Assembly: GCA_030265395.1 (NCBI GenBank)
Contig: JARFYF010000060.1
Location: 11,494,507-11,558,506 of the forward strand
Direction of reading: 5' to 3'
DNA from: Rhina ancylostomus
Taxonomy: Eukaryota
DNA length: 64,000 bases
Both the position numbers and the translations under genes were made by a program. The notes beneath the pieces are model-generated. The model saw only the letters and a program-made list of their open reading frames with translations, searched no databases and was not told the origin of the DNA. Shown in pieces: positions 7,178 to 64,000 of this stretch. How positions within the stretch are numbered: the first letter of the stretch is position 1; each line of letters starts with the position of its first letter.

Positions 7178-7179
7178 AT

Positions 7180-7197: not shown

Positions 7198-7221
7198 CTG
7201 GTGAAATAAACTGCACTCACA

Positions 7222-7667: not shown

Positions 7668-7848
7668 NNNNNNNNNNNNNNNNNNNNNNNNNNNNNNNNN
7701 NNNNNNNNNNNNNNNNNNNNNNNNNNNNNNNNNNNNNNNNNNNNNNNNNNNNNNNNNNNNNNNNNNNNNNNNNNNNNNNNNNNNNNNNNNNNNNNNNNNN
7801 NNNNNNNNNNNNNNNNNNNNNNNNNNNNNNNNNNNNNNNNNNNNNNNN

Positions 7849-10553: not shown

Positions 10554-10655
10554 CACACGATGGGTAGCGGTAGAGGGGGAGCTGGGGCTAATGTGCTTGA
10601 ACACCCAACAGTTGACAAAAAGAGAGTGAGTGTATGTGATTGATCCAGGGGGGAG

Positions 10656-11900: not shown

Positions 11901-11911
11901 GAGGGGTGGAA

Positions 11912-12337: not shown

Positions 12338-12759
12338 ACTGACCCCTCCAAACTGGGCTGCCCAACTGGGGAGTGAGGAATTGTTCTGCACGTAAGAAGG
12401 AATGATACAATCCAGTGACTCACTGAATCAATTGTCCAATAATTATCTTATCAACATTTCCTTCAATGTTTGGACTGAACCTTGGGTTTTAACAATATTT
12501 CAAAACTTGCCAAATGCTCTTCGTGCACAGTAAAACTGTGAACTGGATTCACTGGGACTATAGAATCTTATCAGAAACCAATTGCTCTGGCAGGCCATGC
12601 ACTGCAAAAACTCACTGATTTCTCCAGAGTTTGCTCTTTGATGGTGGATGGTCCCATTGGCAGGATCTCAGACTGAATTCAGTGGCTCTCTGCCAGAATA
12701 AAACAAAATAATACAGCCTTAGTTAGGAAAACAATCAATGTTTGGAACCCTAGAGCTGG

Positions 12760-16950: not shown

Positions 16951-17079
16951 TCCATGGCAGGAGAAGGTGCCAAAGTCAGACTCAGCAACCAAAGAGGGTC
17001 TGGACTCCCAAACAGTTCAACACCAACTGGCAACCACACACAGACGGGGGCCAAGAGTGGAGAAGGGGTGAAGGGCGTG

Positions 17080-43188: not shown

Positions 43189-44670
43189 CACAGGTTTTCA
43201 AGCTGTGGTCCGCGGACCCCCAGGGGTCTGCGGCAGGTTGACGGGATCCACCAGCAAGCCAAGAAAAAATGGACAAGTGACCTGTTACAAAGACGTAGCT
43301 TACTTGCTTGCTACAGTTTTCCACTATGCAGAAAATCAGCCATATCTATTCTATCAGTTATAGGGGACAATCTTAGAGACTTAGACAGTGTTCCCTTTCG
43401 GTAAGCTGCCGCTTAATATTGCATTTGTGTAGTCAGTAGTGGAAGTCGCTACTATTCTGTTGTGCCCTGTAGTGTTAGCAAGACTGAGTGCCGTTGTTGG
43501 TGTGCCTTAATAATATTGCTTACTTACCATGCATTAACGCCACAGTGACGTCATTGTTAAACGAAAAGTGCGCAAGCGTGTAAATTTTAGATTAGTTTTG
43601 ACCATTTTGTTTATCAGTAGTAGTAATTAAACTGTCTAGCGTGTATTGCTGAGTATGGAGAAATTTCTGAAGAGAAAAGCTGACCAGAAACCAGAAGATT
43701 CTGATGACGAAGGGGTTAAGGGTTACCGAAAGAGAAAACAGTGCAAATACGATCCGGAATACCTTTCGTATGACTTCATCGCAGTGGGGACAAATGCGGA
43801 CCGACCTCTCTGTGTTGTGTGTTTTCAAACACTGTCCAATGATGCAATGAAACCAATGAAATTGAAGCACCATTTAACAACAGTGCATCCAGATATTGCC
43901 AGTTAGCGGAAGGAATATTTTGAGCGGCAAAAGGAGCCGTACCTCAAGCAGAAAGGCAAAATGACTGCCTGCGCCACTGTAAATGAGAAGGCCCTTCGTG
44001 CATCATATTTGGTAGCATTACGTATAGCACGTTCCAGAAAGCCTCACACGATTGGAGAAGAGCTTATACTGCCTGCAGCAGTAGATATGTGCGAAGTTGG
44101 ACTGGGAAAAGAATCCAGTCAAAAACTGAGAGCCATTCCACTGTGTGATAACACAGTGAGCAGAAGAATTGGCGATATGGCAGATGTACGGAGCTANNNN
44201 NNNNNNNNNNNNNNNNNNNNNNNNNNNNNNNNNNNNNNNNNNNNNNNNNNNNNNNNNNNNNNNNNNNNNNNNNNNNNNNNNNNNNNNNNNNNNNNNGCAA
44301 AGCCATCAAGGTTCTGTTACCATTTGCAACCACTTACTTGTGCAAAACAGCATTTTCTGCAGTCACTGCCATGAAAACCAAATACAGATCAAGACATACT
44401 GACATATTGAGGATGACATGCACGTATGTTTGTCACACATACCATCACGTTTGGACAAACTCTGCAGTGCAAAACAGGCACAACCTTCACATTGAACTGA
44501 ACACTGAAAGACACCGCTGGTGATTATTGGTGATTGACGGGCCCATGTGCAGTAATTTAAGTGTTGTATGCACGAATTATTGATTGTTTGATTTTGTGGG
44601 CTTTGGGGGTCTGCCATCTAACAAGGACATGTTCTGGGGGCTGCAGCATGAAAAAGGTTAAAGACCACTG
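43189..44670 (+). mobile_element. hAT transposon, Buster/Charlie family
   Basis: Perfect 8-bp TSD gtctagaa (43181-43188 and 44671-44678) fitting the NTCTAGAN preference. Imperfect TIRs: cacaggttttcaagct on the left and cagtggtctttaacct (reverse complement) on the right. Confidence 0.93.
43655..44495 (+). pseudogene. Buster/Charlie transposase remnant (ZBED5/FAM200-like family)
   Basis: Zn-finger PLCVVC..KPMKLKHHL..H, then ASYLVALRIARSRKPHTIGEELILPAA and DNTVSRRI. C-terminal LLPFATTYLCKTAFS..KTKYRSR..AQPSH*. In-frame stop at 43904-43906. The centre is hidden by an N gap. Confidence 0.9.
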
Positions 44671-45164
44671 GTCTAGAATGAGCTGCCAGAGAAGGTGACA
44701 GATACAATTACAGCATTTAAAAGGCATTTGGGCAAGTATTTTGCACAGAATAGGAAAGGCACACAAGGATACAGGCCTAATGGAGGCAAATAGGGCCCAT
44801 TTCTATTCTGTATGATTCTGTGATATGGCCCGAAATTATTTCACTTGCTGTATGTATTTTATACCTTGTACTTTCTACGCATGAGGATTCTTCAGTCTGA
44901 TTGGCTGAAGATCATTTGTCCTTACCACAAATTATCGCAGATCTCCTCTTGTGGGTACAGGCTGGATTAGAGCAAGTTTTTTTTTCTCTCTGTGAATGCA
45001 CTGAAAGTTTTGGGGACAGCTGGCAACAAAACGAGCATTGTTTCCACACTGCTGATTTTTGAATTTCAGCCTTGCGTTACAGAATATATAACAGAAACCT
45101 GAAACAATTTTTCACCATTGAACTATTCCCTTTCATTGCAGTTTTCTCCACTTGGTCTACAGTC

Positions 45165-45234
45165 ATGGTTGCATTACAAGGCACCATCTACATTGTGATA
45201 TTCTCGGTATTCCTACCAAAAGGAAATTCAGAGA
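45165..45234 (+). CDS. IgV-GPI gene coding exon 1: signal peptide MVALQGTIYIVIFSVFLPKGNSE (exon starts at 45142)
   Basis: Acceptor ccctttcattgcag, ATG in gtcATGg context, hydrophobic core, and phase-1 donor A|gtaagt that joins in frame to the V exon. Confidence 0.85.
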
Positions 45235-45645
45235 GTAAGTATTGAGTTAATGCAACTGATGAATCAAATTGGATTGATGAATATTCTTATTTTGAGTTGT
45301 TGTATTTACTGACAGTGATATTCGTTTCAGAGCTATGCAGCTAATTCCTTATTTATAGAGAATCCATTCAATGACGAACCAACACAAGCAATATTCAGCA
45401 TTTCCGCAGAGCAGCATCAGCTTGGCTTGCCTTTGGTCATTTGGCCACGGACTAGAATTCCCCTTCTCACATCATCGAAATTAACGCTTCAGTGCAGGAA
45501 ATGCTAGATTTCAGCTCCGATTCTCTGAACCAGCACCAAAGCAACAGATTAAACAGTCACCAATTTCAGTTGGTCTGTGTTGTAAGCTGTAACTAGGCTC
45601 TTGAATTCCAGCAATTGAAATTAGTTAATTTGATTAGAGATGGAT

Positions 45646-47565
45646 GAATCAGGATCAGATTTATTATCACTGACGTATGTTGTGAAATTTGTTCTTTTGC
45701 GATAGCAGTACAGTGCAAGACATAAAGACATAAAAATCACCATAAGTTACAAAAATAATAAATAGTGCAAAAGAGTGTTCATGGGTTCATGGACCATTCA
45801 GAAAACTGATGGCGGAGGAGAAGAAGCTGTTCCTGAAACGTTGAGTGTGGGTCTTCAGACTCCTGTACTTCCTAATGGTAGTAACATGAAGAGGGCATGT
45901 CCTGGATGTTGAGGGTCCTTAATGTGGGATGCTGCCTTCTTGAGACACCGCCTCTTGAAGATGTCCTTGATGGCAGGGAGGGACATCCCTTCCTTCCGAT
46001 AAGGAAGTCGAGGATCCAGTGACAGAGGGAGGGTACAGAAGCCCAGGCTTTGAAGCTTGTTGAATAGTACTGAGGGGATGATGGTACTGAACACCGAGCT
46101 GTAATCGATAAACAGCAGGCTGATATACCTATGTTTTGCTGTTGTCTAGGTGCTTGAAAGCAGAGTGGAGAGCCAGTGAGATTGCATCCACTGTAGACCT
46201 GTTGTGGCAGTAGGCAAATTGCAGCAGGTCCAGGTCCTTGCTCAGGCGGGAGTTAATGCTAGCCATGACCAACCTCTCAAAGCACTTCATCACAGTAGGT
46301 ATGAGTGCTACTGGGTGATAGTCATTGAGGCAGCTCACCCTGCTCTTCTTGGGCACCGGTATGATTGATGCCCTTTAGAAGCAGGTGGGAACCTCCAACT
46401 GCAGCAGTGAGAGATTGAAGATGTCCTTGAACACTCCAGCCAGTTAGTTGGCACAGATTATCAATACCTTACTAGGTACACAATCAGGGCCTGACGCCTT
46501 GTGAGGGTTCACCCTTTTGATGTTCTCATGTCAGCCTCCAAGACAGAGATCAGAGTTGCCCGATGCCGTGGGGATTCACAGGTGTAGTGTTATTCTCCCT
46601 TTCAAAGGGTGCAGAAAAGGCGTTGAGCTCATCTGGGAGTGAAGCATTGCTGCCATGTTAGGTTTGGTCTTATAAGAAGTAATGGCTTGCAAACCCTGCC
46701 ACAGCTGTCGTGCATCCAATTGTTTCTCTAACTTCACTCGGGGTTGCCTTTTTGCTCTCATGATGGCCTTCCATAGGTCATACCTGGACTTCTTGTAGGG
46801 TTCTGGATCACCGGTCTTGAACGCCACTGATCTAGCCCTCAGCAGACTGTGAATCTCCTGGTTCATCCAGGGCTTCTGGTTCGGAAAAACTCGACGGCAC
46901 ACCTCATCCCCGCAGGTCTTGATGGAGCTGGTGGCAACTGTGGCATATTAATTCAGATCTGAAGATGAACCCCTGAATGTGGTCCAGTCTACTGATTCAA
47001 AGCAGTCCTGTAAACGCTCTTCAACCTCCCTTGACCAGACCTTCACAGTCCTCGCCACTGATACTGCGGTCTTCAGTCTCTGTGTGTATGTCAGGAGTAG
47101 ACGTGCAGCCAGGTGATCAGACTTGCCAAAGTGTGGGCGCGGGATGGCATGGTAAGTGTTCTTAATGGTGGTGTAGCAGTGATCAAGTGTATTGGCTCCT
47201 CTGGTTCTGCAAGTGACACATTGGTGGTAGTTTGTCAGAGACTTCTTCAAGCTGGCCTGGTTGAAGACCCCATGATGATTGGGAAGGTCTCGTGACTGTT
47301 GATCACGGTGCTCAGCTCCTCCAGTGCCAGCTTGTCATTTGCCAGGGATGGAATGTACACCGCTACCAGGATGGTGACAGAGAACTCCCTCGGCAGATAA
47401 AACAGACAACACTTGTTCGCCTGATGTTCCAGGTTGCGGCAGCGGGACAGTGACAGAACCACTGTGTCTGTGCACCACGATGAGTTAATAATGAAGCAAA
47501 TGCCACTGCCTCTGCCTTTGCCTCTGCCTTTGCCTCTGCCTTTGCCTCTGCCTTTGCCTCTGCCT
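45646..47565 (-). mobile_element. Rex1/Babar LINE, 5'-truncated and internally deleted
   Basis: EN remnants TLDHCYT and FGKSDH. Also [27 protein letters not shown] and LQFAY..NRST.DAI. The sequence then jumps to IKDPQHPGHALF. 3' tail aataaatctgatcctgattc. Confidence 0.9.
47507..47565. repeat. 12-bp tandem repeat (tgcctctgcctt), about 5 copies, at the 5' end of the Rex1 copy
   Basis: Read directly. Encodes GKGR repeats continuing the element's own GKGRGSGICF motif. Confidence 0.9.
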
Positions 47566-48158
47566 AAAATGCCACAAGGATATGAAAGCTGGAAATGCAA
47601 AATCTTTTCAGGATCATTTTAAACAAATTACCTCTCAAGCATCTGCTTTGGTTCAATGCTATTGTTGCAATGATCACAGGATAGGAAAATGTTGTCAAGG
47701 CAGTTTTTCATGGTTTGCTTGCTCACAGCGTCATTTGTACCAATTGCAATTTAGTATTTGTTAGTTTTGAATCTGCTGTTGAAAATTTGGCTAGAATTAA
47801 TTGATTTTTTTTTTATAACTCCATATTTCTACAAATAGAACAACTGTCGATGCTTTGGGTCAAAATCCTGCATCAGGACAAAATGGGATATTGGATTACC
47901 TTGCAATCATTGTTATAAATGAGCTGTTTCAGTGCAAGATGGTAAATTAATATTTTTCAGCTTTTTTATTATTTTTACCACTGCTTACTGATGAAGGAAG
48001 TTATTGTGGTGTTTAAAAAAAGTTCCTCTCTGAGAAGGCATAGATGAAAAATCAGTGCTTTTCTATTTTAGGGATGGTTTCAAAGGGATAATGTAGTATT
48101 TGTTAGGTTCCAGGAAGATGCTCGGCTTAAAAACTCAGCCCTACTTAAATGATGAAGT

Positions 48159-48820
48159 AGATTAGAGTTACAAACATGGAATAATTTTATTTAATTTACA
48201 ATTCATGGAAACAAACATTCAGAATATTGAAAAATATTTAAACAAAATTGAGGGCAAATTTGAAGTGGAAGTCAAAGAAACTGAATTATTGGAGTCGAGT
48301 TCTTTGCAAATATGTTACCACTTTGCACATATACAGAGCTGTGTTTTCTACCCCAACCTGAATTAAGGAAATATAAATTATTTTAAAATTCGATGTTGTG
48401 TTTGGTCCATGTGAGAGAATGGATCACTTCCAATTTTAAATTTCATACAGTTATATCAAAATGATTTTATACGACATTGAATGCAGAATGAAGCCTAACT
48501 AAGTGACTCAGGCCGAAGNNNNNNNNNNNNNNNNNNNNNNNNNNNNNNNNNNNNNNNNNNNNNNNNNNNNNNNNNNNNNNNNNNNNNNNNNNNNNNNNNN
48601 NNNNNNNNNNNNNNNNNNTAGATTTGTTCTGGTATGAAATTGGGTCGAATTTGACAGTAACATATTTGCAAAGAACTGTGCTCCAGTAATTCATTTCTGT
48701 TGACTTCCTTTGGAAATTTCTACTCAATTATGTTTAAATAATTTTCAATATTCTGAATGTTCATCTGCTTCCACTAATTGCAAATTGAATAAAATCATTC
48801 CATGCTATTTACTCCAATCG
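48159..48820. mobile_element. Foldback/MITE-like element with ~160-bp inverted arms
   Basis: 48159-48318 is the imperfect reverse complement of 48657-48820, e.g. agttctttgcaaatatgttac / gtaacatatttgcaaagaact and aacattcagaatattgaaaa / ttttcaatattctgaatgtt. Confidence 0.8.
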
Positions 48821-49675
48821 AGTTCTCACGATTCTTTGGGCAGGTCCATTCGTTTAAATTTTTCATGACTTGACTCATCCAATGTCTCTCTCCTTGTCTC
48901 TCCCACGCATCCTTTCGTGACCTTCCCAGTGCCCTCTCTCACACTTCACATTTTCTCTCCTCTTGCTCTCACTCTCCTCTAACACTCTTGCTGCTTTCTC
49001 TCCCTTCTCCCTCATCACTCACTCCCTCACCCTCCCTGGTTGTTCACACTCCATTACTCTCACTCACTATCTCTGCCAGCCCTTTTCTTTCATTTTTCAT
49101 CGAGCTAGATATTGCTGAGGATTTGATTAAAGGTCAACATGTGACAAGCCACAAATGACCTGCCTGAATCAATTCAGTTGCATGATTTAATGTTGTGGAA
49201 TTTGCGCTCATGGGATTCTAAATTGTATAGTGTGTGAAAGCACATGCTAAAATGTTGCAGCACAGATGACCCACACTAATCTTGTTCTCAGGTGTAAAGC
49301 AATAATTATTTTGCACAAGAACTGTGTTTTGTAAGCATCATGAGTCCTGGATCTTCAGCTCGGTTGCATGTTTCACCCCACACCCAGCTTTACCAATTGT
49401 TGTGAGAAATCAAACATATCTTGGAGGAATCACAACAAGAAGTATTTGGTCCAATTTCTTCATCAGCAGGACACAACAGGAAACAGGCACTAACACTTTG
49501 AAATATGCCCCAATGTTTTACATTCAGTTTTGGGCTTCTGTGACAAGTAATAAATGAAGAATGTTAAATTCCAGTTCTTGTTTTTTGTACATCAGTTGAT
49601 CATACAAACCCATGAATGACATAAGGGTATTTTCAAATGCTGAATATGTTTCTTTATGCATTTGTTTTTAAACAG

Positions 49676-49975
49676 CTATTAAGCATTTAACCGTGAATCT
49701 GACAGCTGGCAGTCAGGGATCACTGAAGTGTCCCCACCCATTGACGATTAACAATAAACCATTCAGTGTGTACTGGAGAAAGGGATCTGAAACGTTTTGC
49801 TATGAAAACGGCAAAGAACTACTCCATTGTGAAGGCTTTCAACATGAGATAACTAAAGAAGAAATTATATTAACCATTCCAAAAGTGAATGACTCAGATA
49901 CCGGAAGCTACATTTGCCATGTGAACACTGAAAATGAGAGTTTTGAATGCAGAATTGAACTGCGTTTAATAACTG
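49676..49975 (+). CDS. IgV-GPI gene coding exon 2: V-set immunoglobulin domain
   Basis: 300-nt phase 1-1 exon (tttttaaacag| ... G|gtagg). B-strand Cys (SLKC), C-strand Trp (VYWRK) and DTGSYIC F-strand motif. Three extra Cys and three N-glycosylation sequons (NLT, NDS, NES). Confidence 0.93.
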
Positions 49976-50280
49976 GTAGGTTCTTTTAAATACTGGTGTT
50001 GGTTTTGTGTATCTTTTGAATCAAATAGTCAGGCAAAACAAAGTACTTAAGTTGTGATTCTTAATATATGGGAAATATTTTGCTTTGGCAGTAAATCCAT
50101 TCTTTTACATGTCTTTTATGCATTGGCTCCTGCTGTCTGGCTGGATTCCTGTACTGAAAAGTGTTCTTTATGTTTCCTCAAACTCAAAGCAATTCTTGCT
50201 TACTGACTGTTGCCAAGCTTCAATTGAGTACTTCAGCAGTGACCAGAATGACCTCAGAAAGTTTCTGTTCTTTAAATGGC

Positions 50281-50560
50281 TGGCACAGTAGCACAGCAGG
50301 TAGTGCAGCAGCTCCAGTGACCAATGTTTGATCCTAATCTCTGGTGCTATCTGTGTGGCGTTTGCATTTCTCTCTGTGTGGGCTTCCCCCAAATGCTCCA
50401 GTTTCCTTAGACAGCCCAAAGACAGCTGGAAGGTTAATTGACTAATGTGAATTACTCCAAGTATAGGTGGGCAGTAGGAGGATCAGCAGGGAGTGAAAGG
50501 GCATCTGAGAGAGAACAAGTGACGAGGAGTAGGTAGGGGAATTGCCCTGAGAGCTGAAAG
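50281..50560 (+). mobile_element. V-SINE (HE1-like)
   Basis: tRNA-like head ggcacagtagcacagcaggtagtgc and V-domain ctgtgtggcgtttgcat..ctccagtttcct..cccaaagac..ggttaattg. Confidence 0.75.
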
Positions 50561-51134
50561 TCCTCCTGTGTTGTTTGGAAATATGAAATACAATGCAAAG
50601 TGTTTGCAAGGCACAAAATTATATATTGAATTACTTGGAGAGTTAAAAACACTTTCAATCTCTTAGCCTGGTTTTGACCTGGCAAGAAATTTTAGTACTA
50701 AAGTTGCACAATAAATGGCATCATGGTGGAACAACAGTTGAGCTAGTGGAGTAGCAACTCCAAAGCCAGAGGCCTGCACTAACAATTGAGAGACCAGAGT
50801 CCAAATCCCACCAGGGCAGCTGTGGGGTTTAAATTCAGTTAATCTTGAATTTTGAGAAAACTAGTCAGGAGTAATGATGACCACAAAACTACAGGATTGG
50901 AATAAAAAAAACATCTGACTCCCTGATTCCCTTCAATGGAGGAAGCCCAACTCATCTCTGACTCCAGACACATAGCAAGGTCCAAAACCCCTACTGAGGC
51001 TGGAGCAGAGAAACAATGAAATCAGATGGACCAATGACCCAGGATCTAAATTCTAACATGGCAAAGCTTTCCCCAGTCCAGTCAAGAAGTCCCCTTTGTA
51101 AAATATCTGGACACCAAGGTCTAAATTGAGATAG

Positions 51135-51369
51135 TGTAGCAACCCGTACTCAAGCGTTTCGAACCACCATCGGTGGCCACGGACGAACGCGCAGGGGCAT
51201 GGCGCGATCTGACTGCGGGGCGGCCGGCGGGGACCTGACGTTACGTCCGCCGAAGAGGCCCTCAGGTATTTTTACGCGCGCGCCTTTTGTTTTAGTCAGT
51301 AAAGTGTGCTTTGCTCCAGCCTCCACGTCTCCGGGTTTTCCTTTTGAAAATGCGCCGCATACGGCTACA
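51135..51369 (+). mobile_element. Short CpG-rich solo LTR (Gypsy-type), 235 bp
   Basis: TGTAGC...GCTACA inverted termini and an AGTAAA signal at about 51298. Flanks atag/ataa form a near-TSD. It interrupts an older LINE-like sequence. Confidence 0.75.
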
Positions 51370-52859
51370 ATAATTGTCCTGCAGACCAGTCAAACAACAG
51401 CCTGACCTGGTCATATTTACAGATTTGTACCTTTAAGGCAGTGTGCCAGACTCTTCCAACACAATCCTTGAGTAGTGCTATCTTTCTGGCAGGACTGACT
51501 GACCCATCAGAGGTGATGGTCTAGTGTTGTGCAGCCAAGACAGTTAGCCCTGGGAATCCTCAACATTAACCCCAGATCCCATGAAGTCTCATGGCATCAG
51601 ATGAACCGAGTGCATGCCAACCTCGTGATTACCATATACCACCCTCTGTCAATGATGAATCAGTGCTCCTCCATAGCAATGGCAGCTATGTTCACCCAGA
51701 AGGGCCAATTAGATGATGCCAGTCTTCAGCAGTTGGCTTCACATGAAATCAAGAAAACACAGAGCACTGAATTTTGCAAAGGGACCAGACGATATCCTGA
51801 GCAAAATGCAAACTGCTGGAGGAACTCAGCAGGTCAGACAGCATCTGTTGAGAGAAATGGATGGTTGATGTTTCAGGTTGAATTCCTTCATCTGGACTGC
51901 AAGAGTAGACAGGAGATGAGAGGGGGGAAGGGTTAGGGCAACAACTAGCAAGTGATAGGTGGATCCAGCTGAGGTGGGGTTGATTGGCAGATGGAGTCAG
52001 GTGGAGGAGGGAAGGGTGGGGATAGCGACAGAGGCTGGGAGGTGATTGGTGGAGGCAACAAAGGGCTTCAGATAATGGAATCTGATAGGAAAGGAAGGTG
52101 GAGCATGGAACTGAATAAGGGAGGTGGGAGGGCAGATGGGAACAGTGGGGGGAGGGGACTTGGTGGGAGGAGTGTGTGGGTGATGGGCAGATGGAGTTGT
52201 GGAGGAGGGGAAATAAACAGGGTGATAGGGGGCCGGGAGGTGGACAAAGAACATTTTACAGTTCATTCTTGCTGTTTTTTCACACAAAGGTGGAGAGAAA
52301 AAGATAGGGAAGGGATGAATACATCCTCAACCATGTTTTTATATTTCTTTATTTTTCAGGATCTGGACATCACTGGCAAGTCCAGAATTTATTGTCCATT
52401 TGTAAATGCCTGTGAACAGGGCATTTAAGAGTAATTCATATTGGTGTGTCTGGAGTCACATATAACCAGGACTGGGCAAGGACAGCAGGTTCCTCCCTCT
52501 GGGGTATTAGTGAACCAGATTATTTTTTTAAATAACCTGGTAGTTTTGTGTTCACCATTACTAACGAAAAGGGTAATTTTTTTTTTGTGCCAGATTATTA
52601 AAAGAATTCAAATTCCAGAGTAGGATTTGAACTTTGGTCTACTGGATCACAGGCCAAAGTCAAGTCATTTACCCACGGTGCCACCACAGCACCCAATCAG
52701 TCAAAGGAAGGGTGGCTGAAATCCTAGTCAAGGAGATACCAGTGGTATTGGTTATTAAAGCGGGGGAGGGAAGCCAAGTGGGGGAGAGTTTATAGACAGA
52801 GACCGAGAGTGAGATCCATGGGATCATGAATTCTGCCATCAATGGTGGGGCAGACAGAA

Positions 52860-53210
52860 GCAGTACATAGAATAGTACAGCTCAGGAATAGGCCTTTTGG
52901 TCCACCATGTGCTCGCCATGATGCCAATCTAACTAACCCCATCTGCCTGCACATGGTCTATATCCCTCTACTCCCTGCTGTTTATGTGTCTGTCTAAATG
53001 CCTGTTAAACCTGTATCCACCACCTCCCCTGACAGCACGTTTCAGGCACCTACCACTCTCTGCATAAAAAAACGTTGCCTCACATGTTCCCTTTAATCTC
53101 CCCCCGCCCCCCACCTTAAACCCATATCTTCTAGCATTTGACATTCCTACCCTGGGAAAAAGACTTTGACTAGCTACCCTATCTATACCTCTCATAATTT
53201 TATATACCTG
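52860..53210 (-). mobile_element. CR1 LINE 3' end
   Basis: Minus-strand QVYKIMRGIDRVASQSLFPRVGMSNARRYGFKV. Confidence 0.85.
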
Positions 53211-54622
53211 ATGAGGACAGTCCAGATTCAGACTGGAAGGCCAAAGGTTGAAGGAAAGTTTGTGAGAGGGCACAAAGTGCCAGAGACAGGATGAGGCTAA
53301 GGAAAGGTTCTTTAACTACACCTAGCCTCTCACCCTCCAAGTCCCCTGAATATCTCTCTGATCATCTACCCTCTGTCTCTTGACTCACAGTTTCTATTCA
53401 CAATTTCTAAATGGTGCATTATTCAAGCTCAACTTCAATCCCGTCCTTTTACTCCATCGAAGCCTTCCTTGTTCAACCTCCACAACACCCACCTCTGCCC
53501 ATATCTTACTCCATCCACTGATGTTCTGATCCATTTGCAGATGGAGACAATTTTTTTCTGCTCGAGCCACAGGAGCCAGTGTAGGTCAGTACAAGACAAA
53601 CTGACCAATCTTGTGAAGCTCCTACCGAGTAGACCCGGGGTCAGAAGGCAGTACTATTTTAGTCATGTGGTGGAGGCAGAGGTCTTGCCGAGATGGGACT
53701 GAATTGATAATGATTAGCGGTTCCGTTGAAGTTCAGCTTGGACAGTGCACAGTTTGGAAATCAAAGAGCTATGGGTACAGTGGGGGGTGGGGAGATGGTG
53801 GGATGAAAAGTTGAGACCCTGTAGGTGATGGGACAACTGTGAATGTGAAGCTGTTGCCAACTGTGCTGGGAGAGGAGTTATGGACCTACTGGGCACTCTC
53901 ATGGCTGATGAGGCGGAGGTGAGGGAGGATTGGCTCCAACTTGGAAAAGGCCTGATTTATGGAATGATCCTGGTCTTCCTGCAACTCCCTGGGTGACAGG
54001 AGAGGCTTGAACACAGCATGGCTGAGTGTAATCAGTTCAATTGTCTTTCAACAGGAAAACTCCTGGCTAACTAATGCACATGGAGGAAGACTGATTCGAT
54101 TTGGGGGAGGGAACAAGGCTGATCCAGAATGTGATACATTGAAATTCTGGAAGTTAAGGGATAAGGAAATGAACTGACTACAGCACACACTAGAATGGAA
54201 ATACTGACAGAGATTAAGGATCCTGCTGGGATTTTAACACATTCTGTTTAACTTTATCCTACGATCTACGATTACTGAAGGATTATTGGTGTTATTCTTA
54301 GACTTGCACTGTGCTGCTGCTGCAAAACAACAAATTTCACAACATATGTTAGTGATAATAAACCTGAAAAAAAAGGGACATTTTAATTCATAGTCTTTGT
54401 GGGCTTGAGTTGTCTCTCTGTAGGAACCATCTTCATTGACATTGCTCCACTATGTATCTTTATCCCATTTTATGAATTCTCTCGTTCTGCTCCTGACTCT
54501 TGCTAAGTTGCAGATCCCACAACCACAGCTTGGTGTGAAGGTTCTTGCCTCAAAGACTGGGCTCCAGTTGTCTTGGTCCCCTTGGCCATTTGCACTACAA
54601 TGGACTACTTTTTTGTTCTAAC

Positions 54623-54699
54623 TGTCATGGTTCCGAGTACTGGCCCTCAATTTGGCTCCTTTGATGCCTTGTTGTACAGCACATGGATTCCATGCTGGA
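54623..54699. mobile_element. Second copy of the LTR at 2648, truncated by a gap
   Basis: tgtcatggttccgagtactggccctcaatttggctcctttgatgccttgttgtacagcacatgg is nearly identical to 2648-2724. Confidence 0.85.
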
Positions 54700-54799
54700 N
54701 NNNNNNNNNNNNNNNNNNNNNNNNNNNNNNNNNNNNNNNNNNNNNNNNNNNNNNNNNNNNNNNNNNNNNNNNNNNNNNNNNNNNNNNNNNNNNNNNNNN

Positions 54800-55680
54800 G
54801 CTGGTGATGGGATTACGTTGTAGCTGGTGGAATTGTTGAAGAATGAAGTTCTGGGTGCGTAGGTTGGTGGGGTGAAAGGTAAGGACCAAGAAAATCCCTG
54901 TTCTGTCTGTGGGGGGGGGGTGGTAAGAGGAAAAAGTCCGGAAATGGAGGAGAAGTGGGTGAGTGCTCCATCGACCACAGTGGGGGTGAAGTCCCATTTC
55001 CTGAAGAAGAAGGACATCTCAGATATCCTGGAGTGGAAGGCCTCATCTCAAGAACAGATATGGGGGAGATGGAGAAACAGAGAGAAAGGAATGGTGTCTT
55101 TTCCTACAAGGTGGGAGGAGGTGTAATCTCGGTTGCTGTGGGAATCAATGGATTTGTAGTAAATGTCAGTGGGTAGTTTGTCTCCTGAGATGGAGACAGA
55201 GAGATTCAGAAAGGGGAGATTCAGAAATCGTCCAAGTGAATTTGAGGGCAGGTTGGAAGTTGGTAGTGAAATTGAGTTCCACGTGGATGCAGGAAGCAGC
55301 ACCCCAATGCATTTGTCGATGTAGCAGAGAAAGAATTGGGGAGCAGTGCCAGAGTAGGTTTGGAACAAAGACTGCTCCAAGTAGCCAACGAAAAGGCAGG
55401 TGTAGTTCAGACCTATGTGAGTGCCCATGGCTTTGATTTGCAGAAAGTGAGAGGAATAAAAAGAGTTGTTCAGAGCAAGTAGAAGCTCTGCGAGGCAGAG
55501 GAAAGTGTTAGTGGCGGGAAGCTGGTTGAATCTGTTTCAGAAAGAAATGGACAACCCTAAGACCCTTTTGATGGAGAATTGAAGTGTGCAGTTGAAGTGG
55601 ATGTTGTTAAAATAGTGAAGAGCATGCAGGATGTCCTGCATGTAGGTAGGAAGGGACTGGACAAGAGGGTGTTGCTTTTC
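54800..55680 (-). mobile_element. Penelope-like retroelement RT fragment
   Basis: MGTHIGLNYTCLFVGYLEQ, FLCYIDKC (degenerate RYIDD), TDIYYKSIDSH..DYTSSH..IPFSLFL and LVLTFHPTN are PLE RT and thumb motifs. Confidence 0.88.
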
Positions 55681-56129
55681 CTCTAATTTGCATTTGGCCA
55701 TACCCTGTTTTTTACTGTTACTCTAGTGTGTGATCCTGCCAAATTTGCCTCAAGCCATACTGTTCCTGCAGAGTTACATAGTGAACACTGGCATCTACCT
55801 AACGATATGGAAAATTGTCAAAGTTTGTCTTGTTGACAAAAAGTAAACTAGAACAAATACGATGTCTCCGTCATCAACAGTCTGTCAGGTGGCACTTGAC
55901 CATTAACCTGCGGCAGTCAAGTCAAGTTTATAGTCATGTGCACAAGTATGGTGAGCTACAGGTACAATGAAACAGCATCAATGACAACAAACAGAAAATA
56001 TAATACACATAAATTATGCACAAATTATTCATAAATCATACAAGACAGTGAAGAAAGAGAGGAAGAAAGTGTGCAAAAACAAGTCCTTAATGCAGAAAAA
56101 GTGCACTGCTAACACTTTTTTCTAGGATT

Positions 56130-56990
56130 GCTTGGTTCTAACTCTCATCACAACCTTGATCTAAATAAGGACCAACGAGTTGAATTCCAGAGGTAAGGTG
56201 AAAGTGACTACCCTTGACAGCAGAATTTGACCCAGTGCACCATCGACAATAAAACTAAAATCAGTTTGGTCATCGAGAAGAAAACACCCTAATGGCTGGA
56301 GTCATACCTTGCACAAAGGCAGATGGCTGTGGTTTTTGAAGGTCAATCATCCTTGGCCCAGGATATTACAGCAGGAGTTCTTTGGGGCCCAACCATCTTC
56401 AGCTCCATCATCTGTTCAGAAGTGGGGATGTTTGGTGACGGTTACACAATGCTCAATTCCATTTGTTATTTATTAGCAGATGAGGCAGTCGTGCTTGCAT
56501 TCAGTCATATCTAGACAACATTCTGCCACAGGCTGAGAGTAGCAAGCAACTGTTGTGCTACAGAGGTGTCAGCATGACCAGCCTTACTGTGGCTACAAGA
56601 GCTGATCACTGTTGGATTATCCTATGGTGAGTGACCCATGTCCCAGTACCACATAACCTTTCCACTATCAACAAGGCATAAGTAAGAATATGATGGAATT
56701 CTCTCCACTTGCCTGGATATGTGTACCTCCAACAATAGGCAAGGAGCTTGTCACCATCCAAGACAAAGCAAACTGCTTGAATGATATTCCATTCATCACC
56801 CTGAACATTCATTCCAATCACTGCTACTTCATAATCATTTGATCCAAATCCTAGAACACCCTCCTCAACAGCTTTGTTGGAGTGTTTTAAACAGAAGAAC
56901 TGTAATTATTCAGTGGCACGTAACCATCTTCTCAAGGTCAGATGTGGTTGGGCAATAAATGTTGGCTCTGGATCCTGAAATATGAATAAA
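56130..56990 (+). mobile_element. Degraded CR1-type LINE 3' part
   Basis: WLESYLAQRQMAVVFEGQSS..ITAGVLWGPTIFS..GMFGDG RT remnants. Confidence 0.75.
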
Positions 56991-59259
56991 TAACAAAAAA
57001 ATAACCCTGATTGGTCCTTAACATGAAATGCAATATGTATTTTACTTTTTTTTTCATCTGCTTATTACAAGCATATAAGAATAAGAAATAGCTTTTCCAG
57101 TCAATCAAGTATATTTTCTGTTTTTAGATCATATACCTGTCAACAAAAGTAAAATCCAAAGTAGAAACACCAAAAGTTGGAAATATGCAGCAACCTCTGA
57201 GACATAAGAAACATGTATCTCAATATCAAACCTTTCAAAGGCCATCAAGCCAATCCTAGTAGTTTGGTCCCAAGTTCTATCTCTTGAGTCCTGATTGCCA
57301 TTTGTAGCTTACTCCATCTCAAGACATGGCCATGGAACAGACACCTCCAGTGCATGGATCCCGTTGGTGCTGCAGCAAGTAAGCGCAGCCACAGGACTAG
57401 GGCTGGAGGTGAACACAAGATGAAAGCCTGGTCAAGCGTTATTTCACCTGTTTTTGGACACATTTGGGGAAAAGGCTTAATCCATCTTCACAATTTAAAA
57501 GAGAGCTGAGTAAAGAACAGAAAGGAAGCAGATGAAAGGAAACAAGAATATGAGGTTAGAATAATAATGGATCCAGACTAATCATATCTAACCTATGTAA
57601 CTTTGATATACTTCAGCTGTAATATGAAAATTATACAGCCCTTAATTTGGCCCTGAAAATGTGGGTCCTGACTATATTTGTATCACAAAACTTGAGAGCT
57701 ATAGTCATTAAAGAGAAGTACTATCTACTTAACTTTGTTTCACAGAAGGAAGTTTCATGTGAAAATCAGCATTTTGTTCTATAAATAAATCAGCTGATAT
57801 TCATGTGAATCTGTAACTAACCACTCGGTGAATTCACAGTGATTTTGCAGTTTACTTACATGATCTTTGTGTTGGAAAGACTTAAGTAAAAATGCAGAGG
57901 GTAGCTCCTATTTCATATCCACTATTAAAATGTTTCTGAGGTAGCACTTCTTGTTTAAATGAGCATCAGTCCAAAGTGGAATTTTCCCTTCAATGTTGAG
58001 TGTCAAGTCCTCTATATTATCTGTAACCCCTGCATCTCTGCCTCATGTGCTAGAGAGTTTGTGTGTAAGATTGAATTATTTATTTGCTGAATGTGCAAAT
58101 GACTCATTTCACCCTCCGTGCAAGATCCGCTGAGCTGTATTGTGTAGCTTTGCCTATAACTGTTGGAACAAAGTCTGTGCTGAGAGCAGATATTTCTGCT
58201 CCTCACAATGCAAGGTCCAGAGAGGTTGAGATCTCAATTAGTTGAGTACACTTGAAGGCCAACAATAACCTTCTAATTCTACTGTCAAAGTTTGGCCTGT
58301 ATCACACTTAAGGATATTATGAAGATTAATCTGCAGTTCCAAATTTTAGGTTAATCTTCATAATAGCTGGAAGACTCTACTCCTTCCCAACCATCAAATC
58401 CCATAACCATGCCCCTCACCTTGTGGTAATTGAGAGAGAGAGTATTAAACAGAATATAACTTTAACCTCTACAAACAAGCGGAAAGACACCATTAATCTG
58501 GATCATGAAGATTGATAATAAATTGAACATTTCAATTTCAGGTTTACTATCTATTTTGGGCTGGACCTAAAACAGATCTTTGGGCATGCTTTTTCTCAAA
58601 TTAACGAAGAAATAATTCCTAGTGTCATCATACTAAGTCAAAACCATCCCAATTTGCAGGAGATGAGGCCAAGCCAATGCCAATATATTTATAAGAAAAT
58701 GTTATTGACTTTAGTTTGACTAGATTTTGCAGATTTCATAAAATTAAATTGAGGAAGTTTTTTAAACTAAACTTTGCCTTCCTGTTTTCTTATTTACATT
58801 CAGATTATATGGTTTCAGTTTGAGAAAATAGACCCTTGCAAACCATTTATTTAGTCAGGCATGTAAGGTATGGTTTATATTTCACATTTTACTTTAACAG
58901 CTGAAAATCAGTGTGGAAAAATAAAGGTGTATTGCCTGAACATCCCAATGATGAAGCTTTCACTGCTGACTAGAACAAGTAAAGCACACTGGTCCAAGTA
59001 CTGCCATCAGCAAAATGCAATGATTGCTTGAGATTGTATTTCTGATGTTAAAGTTGCACCTATCCAAAGCAAGGGAGTTGGGCTAAGTGACTCTTCTGAG
59101 CTTTTACCGATTTACTTCAGATGCCTGTTAGTGACTTGGAGAAGAACACAGCAACTTCTGGTACTCTAGGCCTTTACACTCCTACCCAGCAGGAGTGAGG
59201 GAACGAACATAACTGAAATGCTTTTACATGGAGCTGGTAGAGACCTAATAGGCCTATTA

Positions 59260-60420
59260 GTCTCCTCCCATGTGACAAGCATCATGTCCTCATTATATAT
59301 TTGGTCCAAACAAGGAAGAAAGCTGAACTCCAGAAGTGAGGTTTGAGCAACTGCCCTTGACATCAAAACAACATTTTTGACTGAGCGTGATAAAACTGAC
59401 ATCCATGAGTCATACATTGCACAAAGGAAGATGGTTGTAGGTATTGGAGGTCAATCAAACAAACCTTGGAAATTGCTGCATTAGTACCTCAAGAAGGTGT
59501 CAACCATCGTCAACAACTTCAATGACATTCCTTCCATCGGGATATTTCTTGATGATTTCTCAATGTTCCAATTCCACTTATGCCCTTCAGCAAATGAAGC
59601 AATCTATGTCTGCAGGCAGCAGAGCTGGACATCATTAAGGCAGGGGCTGGTAAGTGGCAAATAACATTTATGCCACAAATATGCTGGGAAATGAACATCC
59701 CCAACAAGAAAGAGTCTAACCACCAGCACGTTTAGCAAAGGAACCGACACCAAGTCCTACACCATCAATATCTTAGGGGTAACCATCGACGAGCAACTCC
59801 ACCGGACCAGTTGCATAAATACCATGGCTACAAGAGCAGGTCAGAGGCTGGCTAACTAGCAGTGAGTGACTCATCTCCCAACTCTCTGAGCCTTTTCCGC
59901 CACCTGCAAGCAACAAATCAGGAATGTGATGGAATATTCCTCACTTGTTTGGATAAATTCTCAAAAAGCTCAACATTATCCAGGTCAAAACAGCATGTTT
60001 GATTGGTACCCCATCCACCAACATAAACATTCATTCCCTCCACTGTAGCTGTACAGTGAATAGAGTGCACTATCCATTTAATGCACTACAGTGATTCGCC
60101 CAGGCTATTGCGACAACAACTCACAATACAACAACCTCTACCATTAGAAGGATGAGGACATCAGACATGTAGAAACACCCCCACCTGCAGGTTCCACTTC
60201 AAGTCTTGTGCTATCCTGCCTTGGAAGTGTATCACCATTCCTTCTTTGTCGCTGGATCCAAATCCTTGAACTTCCTGCCCAACAGTACGAAGGGAACACC
60301 TTCACCAGACAGACTGCAGCAGCTCAAGAAGTCAGCTCACCACCTTCTTGAAGGCAATCAGGCTTGGGCAATATAATCTGGCCTTGTCAATGAGGCCCAG
60401 ATTCACAGACATGAATTTAA
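59260..60420 (+). mobile_element. Degraded CR1-type LINE 3' part (same family as 56130-56990)
   Basis: Shared gagtcatac..gcacaaaggaagatggttgt, gctacaagagcaggtcagaggctg and gtgatggaatattc motifs. Confidence 0.75.
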
Positions 60421-62346
60421 ATCCATCTAGTGATTGTCAGTTTTGAAAGATTGTCCCACATTTGATGCTTAGAGATAAAAATGTGTTTTCTCTGTTTGCG
60501 AATGTGCAGTGCGATAAGAATTTAACGACCCTGGTGAAGACTCCAGTCCTACAAGCATTCTGCAGAATATGGGAGCTTAGAATCTAGAAACTCTCAGCTG
60601 CCTGCAGAGAAGCACGTCGACACTGTTAACCTGAGCTGCTGTGACAGCCATTCAGAATGAGGAAGAGTAGGGCAGAAACAGAGGGAGGGTAGAATTGAGG
60701 CGTGGAGGAGGAAAGTTGGGGGGAAGGGAAATCAGGGCAAGAGAAGGGGTTCATCCATTTTTGTTGGGCTAAATATTCAATACATTTTACCCTAAACCCA
60801 AATTGGATGCTGCAGAAATCCTGCAGTACGGACATCCTTGCTTTAAGATAACATACTGTGGCTTTCTCCCATTTGAAAGCATTAGAAGCCAACTTCCCTG
60901 TTCACAGCCACTGTCTGAGCTCCCAACTGCTGCTCAGAGACGCATCAACATTGTTAAAATGATGTGTCTATGGCAACCACACAGGTTGCCATGTGGATGA
61001 GAGAAGTCGGGGTTGGAGGGAGCGGGAAGAAGTGGATAGAAAATGGAGAAGCTGGGGGAGAAGCAGAGGGTGGGGGGAATCAAAATGGGAAGGGGAGAAA
61101 TAGAGAGGGAAGAGAAATCAAAAGTGAAATTGTGAGTTAAGCGGTTCATTGATGGGTGATGATGCTCTCATGCAAAGCAATACCCAGACCCATGATCAGA
61201 CTACTCAGAGGACCACGGATTGTGGGACGTACATCATAGAAGCAGCAATCATTATGTACTGTCCCTATTCAAAAGCTCGGAAGGGCAGTCGGGTGGAACT
61301 TGGGAATCTACACGGGATTGTCAGCAAAAATGAAGAAGATGCCCCAGCAAAGGTCTTTGAATTAATGTATGTTTCCCATCTTTATGCACAAAATGTTTAT
61401 TTTACAATGTCTGTCAGTCAGAAGTGCATCCTGTAGATGTGCCAAAGACACTGGGAAAAAATCTCGCAATGAGGTGAACAGGAAGTTCCGAGTCCACCCG
61501 GGCCAGTTTCCCCAGAGAACGGGACTTTGACAAGAGAACACAATCACTTCAAGCCATGTGCAAATCATTTTCATTCCAGAATTATTCATAAAATACAGAA
61601 GAAACTATTTGAGAATACAAATTTCTGGGTAATATTGTCTGCTTTACTTCCTCACCCAGAAAAACAAAATACAGTGTTGATATAAGCAGTTGCAATAAAC
61701 TCTACTCATGTAAAGCATTCACAAGTTACTACATTCTGTGTTCAGAGGAAATAACTGACAACTGACTTCTCCCCTACCTAGCTCCTATTTACTTTGTGGT
61801 AAATCTATTTTCAGCTGTATCAATCAAAATACAATTCTACTATCAAGGGGTATTTTGAAAAGAAGAAGCACTGCCAATTGTGCTGGGTTGTGACAGGTTT
61901 TATATTTGGTAATTTTTCAAAAACCTCAATGAAAGAAATGCAAGCTTTTCAAAACCATTGCAATTGTGCCCAGAGCAAGAAAACTGTCTCCACCCACCTG
62001 GTCCATGGCTGTTCGGATGAGCTGTTTATGGAACCTTGTTGGCCAGACTGCTAAGCGTGCATTGTAAGATTGGATCAACGTTCTCTCGATTTGCTTTATA
62101 TCTCATAGTCCTGGGTTCTAAGTTCACAGAGCATGTTTCCCAAGTGTTTGCTGTTTGTAATGTTTCTTGTTGAGACTGAATGGATTACGCATTGGAACGA
62201 TTTTTATATGGGCTGCACAGCGAGGTCTGTGATCAACTTTTTGCTGCCATAATACATTTTTTAATGTGCCTTTTATGAACTCTGAATGGTATTTTGGAAT
62301 TTTTTTCAGTGATCCTGTCCAATAAGTGTCTTCCTTTTTGTTATAG

Positions 62347-62391
62347 GTAGAAGAATGTTATCCAACTCTAATGGAGTTCATATAAAAGCAG
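62347..62391 (+). CDS. IgV-GPI gene coding exon 3: stalk GRRMLSNSNGVHIKA containing the likely omega site
   Basis: Acceptor ttcctttttgttatag and donor CAG|gtaaga. 45 nt, open only in phase 1, matching the V exon. Confidence 0.78.
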
Positions 62392-62514
62392 GTAAGAATG
62401 TAAGGGCTTGGCTCGTTTTTCAACACACTAAAAAACGTTCTTGAATGTTTGAAATTACTAATTACTCTGATGAAATCCAAACTTGGGAACNNNNNNNNNN
62501 CGTCACTTCCTGGC

Positions 62515-63050
62515 ATAGAATCATAGAAATGTAAAACATAGAAGTAGACTCCTTAAGCCCACCTTGTCCATGCTGGCCATGATGCCTACCTACACTAATC
62601 CCATATGCCTGCATTGGGTCCATAACCTTCTACGCCTTTCCTATCTAAGTATCTGTCCAAACTTCTTCTAAATGTCATAATTATATCTGCATCCACAACC
62701 TTCTCTGGCAGCTCGTTCCATATAACCACCACCTTCTGTATGAAAAACCTACCATTCAGATCTCCTTTAAGTTTCTCCCTTCTCAACTTAAACCTGTGCC
62801 CTCTAGTTCTAGACTCCCCTTCCCCAGGAAAGAGATTCTGATTATCTATCCTATCTATGCCCCTCATAAATTTATAAGTCTCAGCTTCCTATGCTTCGGT
62901 GAGAATAACCCCAACCTATCTAATCTCTCCTTGTAATTACAAAACTCTATTCTAGGCAACATCCTTGTGAATCCCTCTGCACCCCGTCTAATGCCACTAC
63001 ATCCTTCCTGTGTGGAGACTAGAAGTAGAAACAATACAATCTAACTAATA
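62515..63050 (-). mobile_element. CR1 LINE 3' end
   Basis: Minus-strand ORF MRGIDRIDNQNLFP..SRTRGHRFKLR..WNELPEKVV..LDRYLD. Confidence 0.88.
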
Positions 63051-63451
63051 TTTTGTTTTGATTTTCCACCATCTACAACCCACAAATCAAGATGATGGTG
63101 GAATACCATCATTTGCCAGAATGTAGCTCCAACTGTACTCAAAAAGCTCAGTACTAGACAGGGCAAAGGGGCCTGTTATATTGACGCCCAAACATCCTCT
63201 CCCTTCACCATCACGTACCAAACTGAAATATGTACTATTCACAAAATGCTCACCCAGGTTATGCCGAGAGCTCCTCCTAAACACATGACCTCTTCAACCA
63301 AGAAAAATAAGGACCTCAGACCACAGCAAAGTCTACCACCTCTGGTTCCATTCCAAATCCCACAGCTACTTGACTTGGATATTTATTACTTAAGTGCTTT
63401 AGATTTTTTAAAAATCATGTATAATTCATGTGTAATTTTTGTTCCTTTCAG

Positions 63452-63516
63452 GTTCATTCTTTCTGCTACTCCCACTTTTAGTCGTCACTTGGAATTTGCC
63501 ATGGCTTTTATTGTAG
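63452..63516 (+). CDS. IgV-GPI gene terminal coding exon: GSFFLLLPLLVVTWNLPWLLL* (GPI-signal-type hydrophobic tail)
   Basis: Strong acceptor tttttgttcctttcag. The phase-1 frame gives an uncharged hydrophobic run ending directly at TAG with no cytoplasmic tail. Confidence 0.8.
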
Positions 63517-64000
63517 AACAGCAAATGTTGCCTGATTTCTGAAATATGAAACTCTGGAATTCTCAAAGAATTTGTCTTTTAGTGAATGTGCAATATAACA
63601 GTGAATACTTGCAAAACATGCTCCAGCTTAATTTCAATTGAAGTCATCTGACAGATAATCCTAAGCAGCTGCAATAATACAGTATATATTATCTGCAGCC
63701 TGATATATGCCTCATATACTTGTAAGCCTGATTTATTGGGCCATAGATTGGACTTTGGAAATTTCTGTTCATTTAGTCCATTGTGATATTATGGCATCCC
63801 AGCAGTATGTGAATCGTGATTTGTAATGGTTCTACACATTTTCCTGAGTTAAGCATTCATGACAAGGTAAGCAGTAACAAACTGTACCCTGTGAAGTGTG
63901 TTAGGGCGCTTTATTGTGCTCTAAATATGATGATCTTTTACACATTATAAAATAATTTAATTGTCCTGAAAATACTTAGATTTTTTTTGAGGCTATGAAG

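What the first reader, a model, noticed from the sequence alone, without database searches (positions are those of the whole stretch)
45165..63516. Hidden four-exon gene for a GPI-anchored single-IgV surface protein (CD160/Thy-1 architecture) in a probable shark or ray
Seen in sequence: four GT-AG exons, all with phase-1 junctions (70+300+45+65 = 480 nt), give a 159-aa ORF: MVALQGTIYIVIFSVFLPKGNSE-TIKHLTVNLTAGSQGSLKCPHPLTINNKPFSVYWRKGSETFCYENGKELLHCEGFQHEITKEEIILTIPKVNDSDTGSYICHVNTENESFECRIELRLIT-GRRMLSNSNGVHIKA-GSFFLLLPLLVVTWNLPWLLL*. Established: small residues (S-N-G), a short spacer and a terminal hydrophobic run form the standard GPI signal. Single-IgV GPI proteins are uncommon; the familiar ones are Thy-1 and mammalian CD160, an HVEM/MHC-I-binding NK/T-cell receptor. 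The VYW.K..YENGKE segment also resembles B7-family V domains, but I found no C-type domain exon. Inference: this could be an uncharacterised elasmobranch immune co-receptor or ligand, either an ancient CD160-like molecule or a GPI-linked V-only B7 relative. I cannot assign orthology by eye.
Basis: partly seen in the sequence, partly recalled or inferred. Interest (0 to 1): 0.85.

Follow-up and report, generated by a model that had tools for sequence, protein, structure and literature searches.

The report
Shark-ray lipid-anchored single-Ig surface protein
This is a real, intact gene for a small antibody-like cell-surface protein that is probably tethered by a lipid anchor; it belongs to an uncharacterised family seen so far only in sharks and rays and may be an immune-cell contact molecule, but it could not be shown to be the counterpart of mammalian CD160 or Thy-1.

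Summary
The four-exon model is correct. The GT-AG, phase-1 exons give 159 aa, and five elasmobranch proteins of 138-159 aa align to it at 33-47% identity; four of them run end to end. NCBI lists four of the five as uncharacterised or hypothetical proteins (skate, three sharks), so the family is annotated but unnamed. A GPI anchor is well supported by inference: S-x-G is conserved in 6 of 6, and 5 of 6 end in a hydrophobic tail with nothing cytoplasmic after it. No C-domain exon or convincing TM exon was found. The V domain is nearest, weakly, to B7/butyrophilin V domains by sequence and ties among CD80, 2B4 and CD2 by fold. CD160 shares the architecture, but orthology is unproven and no synteny was available. 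Thy-1's cysteine layout is not met. A new point: the core cysteines form a titin-like B/F/G triad, and orthologues keep B+F+G, B+G or B+F. Most likely a tail-less IgV ligand or co-receptor binding in trans; tissue and partner are unknown. Solid gene, modest novelty.

The parts
45165..45234 (+). First coding exon: signal peptide, residues 1-23; cleavage probably after Ser22 (by inspection, no SignalP); good Kozak context
   Evidence: (14 of 23 identical to Cetorhinus)
49676..49975 (+). IgV exon, residues 24-123; Cys42 (B), Trp57 (C), Cys65 (C'), Cys75 (C''), Cys104 (F), Cys115 (G); sequons N31, N95, N110
   Evidence: (pLDDT 92, nine strands)
62347..62391 (+). Stalk exon, residues 124-138, with the probable GPI attachment residue Ser131 (codon 62367-62369) in the conserved S-x-G
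63452..63516 (+). Last coding exon: 19-residue uncharged hydrophobic tail ending at the stop (GPI signal)
   Evidence: (15 of 21 identical to Rhinoraja)
45085..45091 (+). TATA-like TATATAA 80 nt before the ATG; alternatively a good splice acceptor before 45142 would make the ATG exon internal. The 5' end is unresolved
   Evidence: consensus matches only

Best explanation
An intact member of an elasmobranch family of small GPI-anchored single-IgV proteins, a lineage of its own most likely derived from a B7/butyrophilin- or CD2-type V domain. Shown: gene structure, V fold, conservation of all four segments, no C domain. Inferred from standard GPI biology: the signal peptide is removed, the ER transamidase cuts after Ser131 and swaps the 28-residue tail for a glycolipid, leaving a 109-aa (12.4 kDa) glycoprotein in lipid rafts. 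Inferred: a C'-C'' disulfide (Cys65-Cys75) and a core disulfide from Cys42 to Cys104 or Cys115 brace a compact domain whose GFCC' face, with invariant Tyr56 and Tyr66, binds an Ig-family counter-receptor on another cell. With no tail it acts as a ligand or co-receptor, signals only through raft partners, and can be shed or spliced to a soluble form. An immune setting is the likeliest but was not observed. Step odds: gene model about 0.97, GPI anchor about 0.85, immune co-signalling or adhesion role about 0.6.
For: Five homologues, 5 of 1215 candidates, all short single-domain proteins; end-to-end alignment for four. S-x-G in 6 of 6, lying 25-28 residues from the end in the 5 with a tail. No charged residue in the last 20 of 4 of those 5. 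Only one Ig exon in the window. Of 124 phase-1 acceptors downstream of V, 4 open into a hydrophobic 19-mer and exon 4 is best on both scores. The family is a clade at 100/99 against 7 chosen non-family V domains (91/91 with 25 outsiders). The best non-family single domains among 125 fetched proteins are B7/butyrophilin-type V domains (21-26 bits against 148-158 within the family). CD80 is a single-stretch hit at E 0.0024. Top fold ties: B7-1 Z 13.1, rmsd 1.9 over 94; 2B4 and CD2 Z 13.5, rmsd 1.9 over 94. CD2 and CD58 bind through GFCC'C'' faces (PMC11969063, passages). Divergence is fast, as is usual for immune surface proteins (general knowledge).
Against: No expression, ligand or synteny data. 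Fold Z-scores are tied across many V-set families, and titin and IgLON domains score higher than CD80 in the sequence searches; CD80 is not among the 60 rows shown of 96 with the six-sequence profile. The sister group is unresolved in the tree, and the outsider set was pre-selected by similarity to the query. The Atlas puts Thy-1 clusters first for the full-length skate protein. GPI anchoring was judged by rule, not by a trained predictor. Disulfide pairings and side-chain directions are inferred from strand assignment, as no coordinates were returned. One orthologue (Mustelus X2) has no hydrophobic tail.
Confidence: 0.55

Rival explanations
1. It is the true cartilaginous-fish orthologue of CD160: an NK/T-cell GPI receptor for HVEM and MHC class I.
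For: Same architecture. CD160 has 6 exons with the first two untranslated, so four coding exons, plus GPI, TM and soluble forms (PMC9676924, passages). A possible distant non-coding first exon and an acceptor before the ATG exon exist here. The tail-less Mustelus X2 isoform resembles a soluble form. One RUNX-type site lies at 44924, but the window holds 53 such hexamers, so this is chance-level.
Against: Reading through the stalk exon gives a short basic peptide and a stop, not a TM segment; that CD160-TM arises this way is recalled. By recall CD160 lacks the C-strand Trp and has a different extra disulfide, whereas Trp and the C'-C'' pair are invariant here. No neighbouring gene was detected to test synteny.
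Confidence: 0.12
2. It is a diverged Thy-1 (CD90) orthologue or paralogue acting as an integrin/syndecan-binding adhesion molecule.
For: Thy-1 clusters take the top three Atlas ranks for the full-length skate protein (0.94-0.95, 187-190 of 256 features). Similar size. Thy-1 is conserved from fish to mammals (PMC6497726, passages).
Against: The V exon alone gives other top clusters, so the Thy-1 match probably reflects architecture. Thy-1 has a Cys at precursor position 28 (PMC6497726); none of 6 family members has a Cys before the B-strand one. By recall Thy-1 lacks the C-strand Trp, anchors at a Cys and has three coding exons. Apart from 3 family members, all of 123 whole-library hits are 220 aa or longer.
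Confidence: 0.1
3. It is a non-immune adhesion or recognition protein (neural, epithelial or gamete surface).
For: Fast divergence and GPI anchoring also fit gamete proteins (JUNO and Bouncer are GPI-anchored; 10.1101/2023.07.27.550750, passages). IgLONs score well in profile searches. Weak Izumo-Ig match (E 0.005, below cut-off).
Against: IgLON and Izumo matches cover mainly the generic E-F half. The nearest whole-domain sequences are B7/butyrophilin-type.
Confidence: 0.15
4. The tail is a tail-less TM helix, or the main product is secreted, with no GPI anchor.
For: The 19-residue tail is hydrophobic enough to span a membrane (mean 2.05) and models as a helix in the skate protein at low confidence. 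One orthologue isoform lacks it.
Against: The tail ends at the stop, holds prolines, and follows a conserved S-x-G at the right distance in 5 of 6.
Confidence: 0.08

Closest known systems
Uncharacterised elasmobranch proteins LOC144608712 (Rhinoraja longicauda), LOC144669245 (Cetorhinus maximus), chiPu_0001670 (Chiloscyllium punctatum), LOC144479844 X2 (Mustelus asterias), and unnamed P0124
   Same: Same family: signal peptide, V domain with 17 invariant residues, S-x-G stalk, hydrophobic tail.
   Different: Only 33-47% identical; the F- or G-strand Cys is lost in four of the five; none has a name or function.
CD160
   Same: Signal + single IgV + stalk + GPI signal on four coding exons.
   Different: No stalk read-through TM form here; Trp and Cys layout differ by recall; orthology untested by synteny.
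Thy-1 / CD90
   Same: About 160 aa, single V-like domain, GPI; top Atlas clusters for the full-length skate protein.
   Different: No Cys ahead of the B strand; C-strand Trp present; separate stalk exon; Ser rather than Cys anchor site (Thy-1 details partly recalled).
B7 / butyrophilin family (CD80, B7-H3, BTN, MOG)
   Same: Nearest V domains by sequence, weakly; top-tied fold; Tyr-Trp in the C strand.
   Different: No IgC domain, TM segment or tail; extra C'-C'' Cys pair.
CD2 / SLAM family (2B4, CD2, CD48, CD58)
   Same: Top-tied fold (Z 13.5); compact V; CD48 and CD58 are GPI-linked (recalled).
   Different: No C2 domain; invariant B-strand Cys, which these first domains lack (recalled).
Titin I-band Ig domains with the CysB/CysF/CysG triad
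   Same: Cys42, Cys104 and Cys115 align with three Cys of a 3B43 domain; B-F and B-G bonds both occur in titin (PMC5766482, passages).
   Different: Titin is intracellular and multi-domain; the likeness is presumably convergent.

Membership tests
GPI-anchored protein | N-terminal signal peptide | tested here: met
   Hydrophobic core and small-residue cleavage region conserved in 6 of 6; by inspection, no SignalP.
GPI-anchored protein | Small residues at omega and omega+2, polar spacer, terminal hydrophobic run, no cytoplasmic tail | tested here: met
   S-x-G in 6 of 6; tail in 5 of 6; Ser131 is 28 residues from the end. The omega rule itself is recalled.
GPI-anchored protein | Release by PI-PLC | not testable with these tools
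   Needs an experiment.
Ig V-set | V fold with C' and C'' strands, C-strand Trp, D-x-G-x-Y motif | tested here: met
   Pfam V-set above cut-off; model pLDDT 92 with nine strands.
CD160 | Single IgV plus GPI signal on four coding exons | tested here: met
   CD160 exon count from PMC9676924 (passages).
CD160 | V-domain sequence or fold specifically closer to CD160 than to other V-sets | tested here: inconclusive
   Sequence and fold searches do not separate V-set families.
CD160 | Synteny with PDZK1/RNF115/POLR3C (recalled) | tested here: inconclusive
   No neighbouring gene detected among 254 ORFs scanned; flanks of orthologues not available.
CD160 | Binding to HVEM and MHC class I; NK/T expression | not testable with these tools
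   Needs an experiment and RNA-seq.
Thy-1 | Single V-like domain, GPI, about 160 aa | tested here: met
Thy-1 | Cys at precursor position 28, ahead of the B-strand Cys | tested here: not met
   0 of 6 have a Cys before the B strand; Cys28 from PMC6497726 (passages), its strand position recalled; fish Thy-1 not examined.
Thy-1 | Synteny with USP2/NECTIN1 (recalled) | tested here: inconclusive
   No neighbours detected in the window.
B7 / butyrophilin | B7-type IgV domain | tested here: inconclusive
   Weakly nearest by sequence, tied by fold, sister group unresolved.
B7 / butyrophilin | IgC domain after the V domain | tested here: not met
   One Ig exon only; orthologues have no insertion there.
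B7 / butyrophilin | TM segment and cytoplasmic tail | tested here: not met
B7 / butyrophilin | Binding to a CD28-family receptor or TCR | not testable with these tools
   Needs an experiment.
CD2 / SLAM | V plus C2 ectodomain | tested here: not met
   No second Ig domain.
CD2 / SLAM | CD2-type first domain | tested here: inconclusive
   Top-tied fold but within 1 Z of many others.

The most novel reading that the evidence does not exclude
The family is an ancient V-only, GPI-anchored co-signalling molecule (a CD160-type receptor or a B7 offshoot) from the base of jawed vertebrates, and its titin-like CysB/CysF/CysG triad is functional. In species that keep all three cysteines, the core disulfide can isomerise under the force of cell-cell contact or with redox state, making a mechanical switch in an immune surface protein, while other lineages have fixed either the canonical B-F or the atypical B-G bond.
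Probability: 0.12. Interest if true: 0.75.

Novelty: new variant of a known kind. Interest (0 to 1): 0.45.

Why it matters
Single-IgV GPI proteins are few, and the co-signalling repertoire of cartilaginous fish is poorly characterised. A conserved, unnamed shark and ray family of this build is a concrete, easily expressed candidate for tracing where CD160-like or V-only B7-type molecules came from. The natural swap of the supposedly fixed Ig core disulfide (B-F, B-G or both) among orthologues gives a ready-made series for testing disulfide plasticity in an extracellular Ig domain. Without expression, ligand or synteny it remains one more uncharacterised lineage-specific Ig gene.

Tried and rejected
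Word-index searches with the V exon alone found nothing at near or longer lengths; relatives came from the whole-library search and the alignment query. Shorter lengths were not searched.

CD160 and Thy-1 are not among the rows shown in any PDB sequence search (best 60 of 155, 78 and 96) or fold search (about 50 rows each). This excludes neither, and I do not know whether Thy-1 is in those libraries. The N-terminal 61 residues of V gave 0 PDB hits.

A two-copy complex prediction of the V domain returned no verdict (score 0.00 in two runs, alignment not used); it is not evidence either way.

Hidden C-domain or TM exon: rejected. Gaps at 48519, 54700 and 62491 could hide sequence, but the orthologues need no extra exon. 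Splicing out of exon 4 before the stop: rejected, donor score -1.4.

Neighbour genes: 227 of 284 exon-like ORFs (57 in the retroelement region dropped) plus 27 hand-picked long ORFs gave only Ig and mobile-element matches worth noting. Rfam 0 and tRNA 0.

Organism: closer to skates by identity and in the full-length tree, but basal to skates plus sharks in V-only trees with outgroups; grouping with skates is not rejected (p-AU 0.29). So a cartilaginous fish, perhaps a non-skate ray, unsettled.

Left unchecked: other cluster members such as Mustelus isoform X1, genomic flanks of orthologues, viral and metagenome contig collections, and supplements of the bioRxiv preprint.
Full report
Observation. 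The four exons are at the stated coordinates, have GT-AG borders and phase-1 junctions, and give the stated 159-aa protein. Exon 2 is a Pfam V-set domain above the curated cut-off and models confidently as a nine-strand V fold (pLDDT 92). It is the only Ig exon in the window. With a splice matrix built from recalled frequencies, exon 3 is the best of 156 candidate rows on the + strand; its acceptor and donor rank 5 of 4261 and 5 of 3582, the exon 4 acceptor ranks 21, and the exon 2 acceptor only 393.

Independent confirmation. Word-index searches with the V exon found nothing. A whole-library phmmer gave 123 hits, of which 3 were short single-domain proteins and 120 were Ig proteins of 220 aa or more. 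A profile of those three plus the V exon returned 5 of 1215 candidates: Rhinoraja longicauda LOC144608712, Cetorhinus maximus LOC144669245, Chiloscyllium punctatum chiPu_0001670, Mustelus asterias LOC144479844 X2 and an unnamed 159-aa protein seen on 19 contigs of up to 3121 bases, a length that suggests spliced transcripts (inference). They align with the model at 33-47% identity, four of them from start to stop with no room for another exon. Homologue-derived profiles rank exons 1, 3 and 4 first among 40,440, 61,853 and 46,570 windows (columns taken from an alignment that included the model). Plain tblastn recovers exons 1, 2 and 4 with good E-values and exon 3 only weakly. The family forms a clade against outside V domains (100/99, 91/91). 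The organism is a cartilaginous fish by inference; it is closer to skates by identity and in the full-length tree but basal in outgroup-rooted V trees, with a skate grouping not rejected.

Anchor. The stalk is variable except for S-x-G, present in 6 of 6 sequences. In the 5 with a tail it lies 25-28 residues from the end, ahead of a polar spacer and a terminal hydrophobic run. Ser131 is the likely attachment residue, leaving a 109-aa, 12.4-kDa core with three sequons. Among 124 phase-1 acceptors downstream of V, four open into hydrophobic stretches and exon 4 is best on both scores; reading through either the V or the stalk exon gives a short peptide and a stop, not a TM segment. The Mustelus X2 protein ends just after S-H-G and may be a soluble form. 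GPI proteins are recognised by these two signals, sit in rafts and signal through partners (PMC7746843, passages); the omega rule is recalled, and no trained predictor was run.

Cysteines. The B, C' and C'' cysteines are invariant (6 of 6). The canonical F-strand Cys is present in only 3 of 6 and a G-strand Cys in 5 of 6: two members keep B+F+G, three B+G and one B+F. Every member keeps at least one partner for the B Cys. The same three positions align with three Cys of a titin domain in 3B43. In titin this CysB/CysF/CysG triad forms B-F or B-G bonds and isomerises under force (PMC5766482, passages). I infer a C'-C'' disulfide and an exchangeable core disulfide; no coordinates were returned, so distances were not measured. 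With six sequences this may be simple redundancy and not a switch.

Which family. Sequence searches of solved structures are led by titin, IgLON and other generic domains; CD80 appears as a single stretch at E 0.0024 with the four-sequence profile and is not among the 60 rows shown with the six-sequence one. Among the fetched proteins the best outside domains are V domains, one of which has CD276 and butyrophilins as its nearest solved relatives, but they score 21-26 bits against 148-158 in the family. Fold searches tie B7-1, B7-H3, B7-H6, 2B4 and CD2 within 1 Z of many other V domains. The Atlas gives Thy-1 clusters for the full-length skate protein but other clusters for the V exon alone. 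CD160 matches in having four coding exons and GPI, TM and soluble forms (PMC9676924 and PMC4163173, passages). Thy-1 has a Cys at position 28 (PMC6497726, passages) that no member here has. No neighbouring gene was detected among 254 ORFs scanned, so synteny is open. The protein is therefore built like CD160 or Thy-1, carries a weakly B7/CD2-like V domain, and cannot be filed in any of these families.

Mechanism. Most likely a tail-less raft protein that presents its GFCC' face to an Ig-family counter-receptor in trans. Tyr56 and Tyr66 are invariant and, by strand alternation, face outward (inference); CD2 and CD58 bind through this sheet (PMC11969063, passages). It would act as ligand or co-receptor and could be shed. 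An immune role rests on the nearest relatives and the fast divergence only; neural or gamete roles remain possible.

Literature. No paper in the library holds any of the four locus identifiers. A search for GPI-anchored single-V proteins in cartilaginous fish listed 4 papers, none about this family by title or abstract start; Thy-1 with shark, ortholog and synteny gave 0; some searches gave listings with no such report. A review of fish immunity mentions putative B7 genes in elephant shark and never CD160 or Thy-1 (PMC6795676, passages). PMC12151841 and 10.1101/2023.07.27.550750 were read in passages, the first without use. The library lacks most subscription papers, and preprint supplements were not seen, so a prior description cannot be excluded.

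Verdict. A real, intact, conserved gene. New variant of a known kind; interest 0.45.

Noticed in passing
window 17000-18400: CpG island (GC 0.47-0.59, CpG o/e about 0.5-0.9) with an ETS-type motif at 17586 and a consensus-like + strand donor at 17786; no coding exon detected between it and 45142. May be a distant first exon of this gene, though it would carry upstream ATGs out of frame with 45165, or of another gene.
   Followed up: partly
window about 6600-12350: Degraded LTR retroelement or endogenous retrovirus: direct repeats 6620-7183 and 11912-12343, RT pieces 8101-8706, weak integrase match 9687-10094, and an env-like stretch at 11324-11605 (motif recalled, no Pfam hit). Broken into many short ORFs.
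   Followed up: partly
window 43640-44500: Fragment of a DNA transposase just upstream of the gene (weak zf-C2H2_12 match; hAT-like by recall).
   Followed up: partly
window 45858-47618, minus strand: Broken LINE fragment in intron 1 (weak RVT_1 match at 46132-46374), next to a (TGCCTCTGCCTT)n run at 47507-47565.
   Followed up: partly
window 51150-51370: Short CpG-rich patch inside intron 2 (27 CpG in 500 bases); no Rfam or Pfam match; unexplained.
   Followed up: no
window 63517-64000: No canonical AATAAA after the stop, only variants, and a strong donor-like site near 63866; the 3' end probably lies beyond the window.
   Followed up: partly
window 62349-62354: A basic residue pair or single Arg just before the anchor site recurs in 5 of 6 members; possibly a shedding site, untested.
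   Followed up: no
window 48154-48825: Inverted repeat of about 170 bases at 81% identity around the gap at 48519, perhaps a MITE.
   Followed up: no
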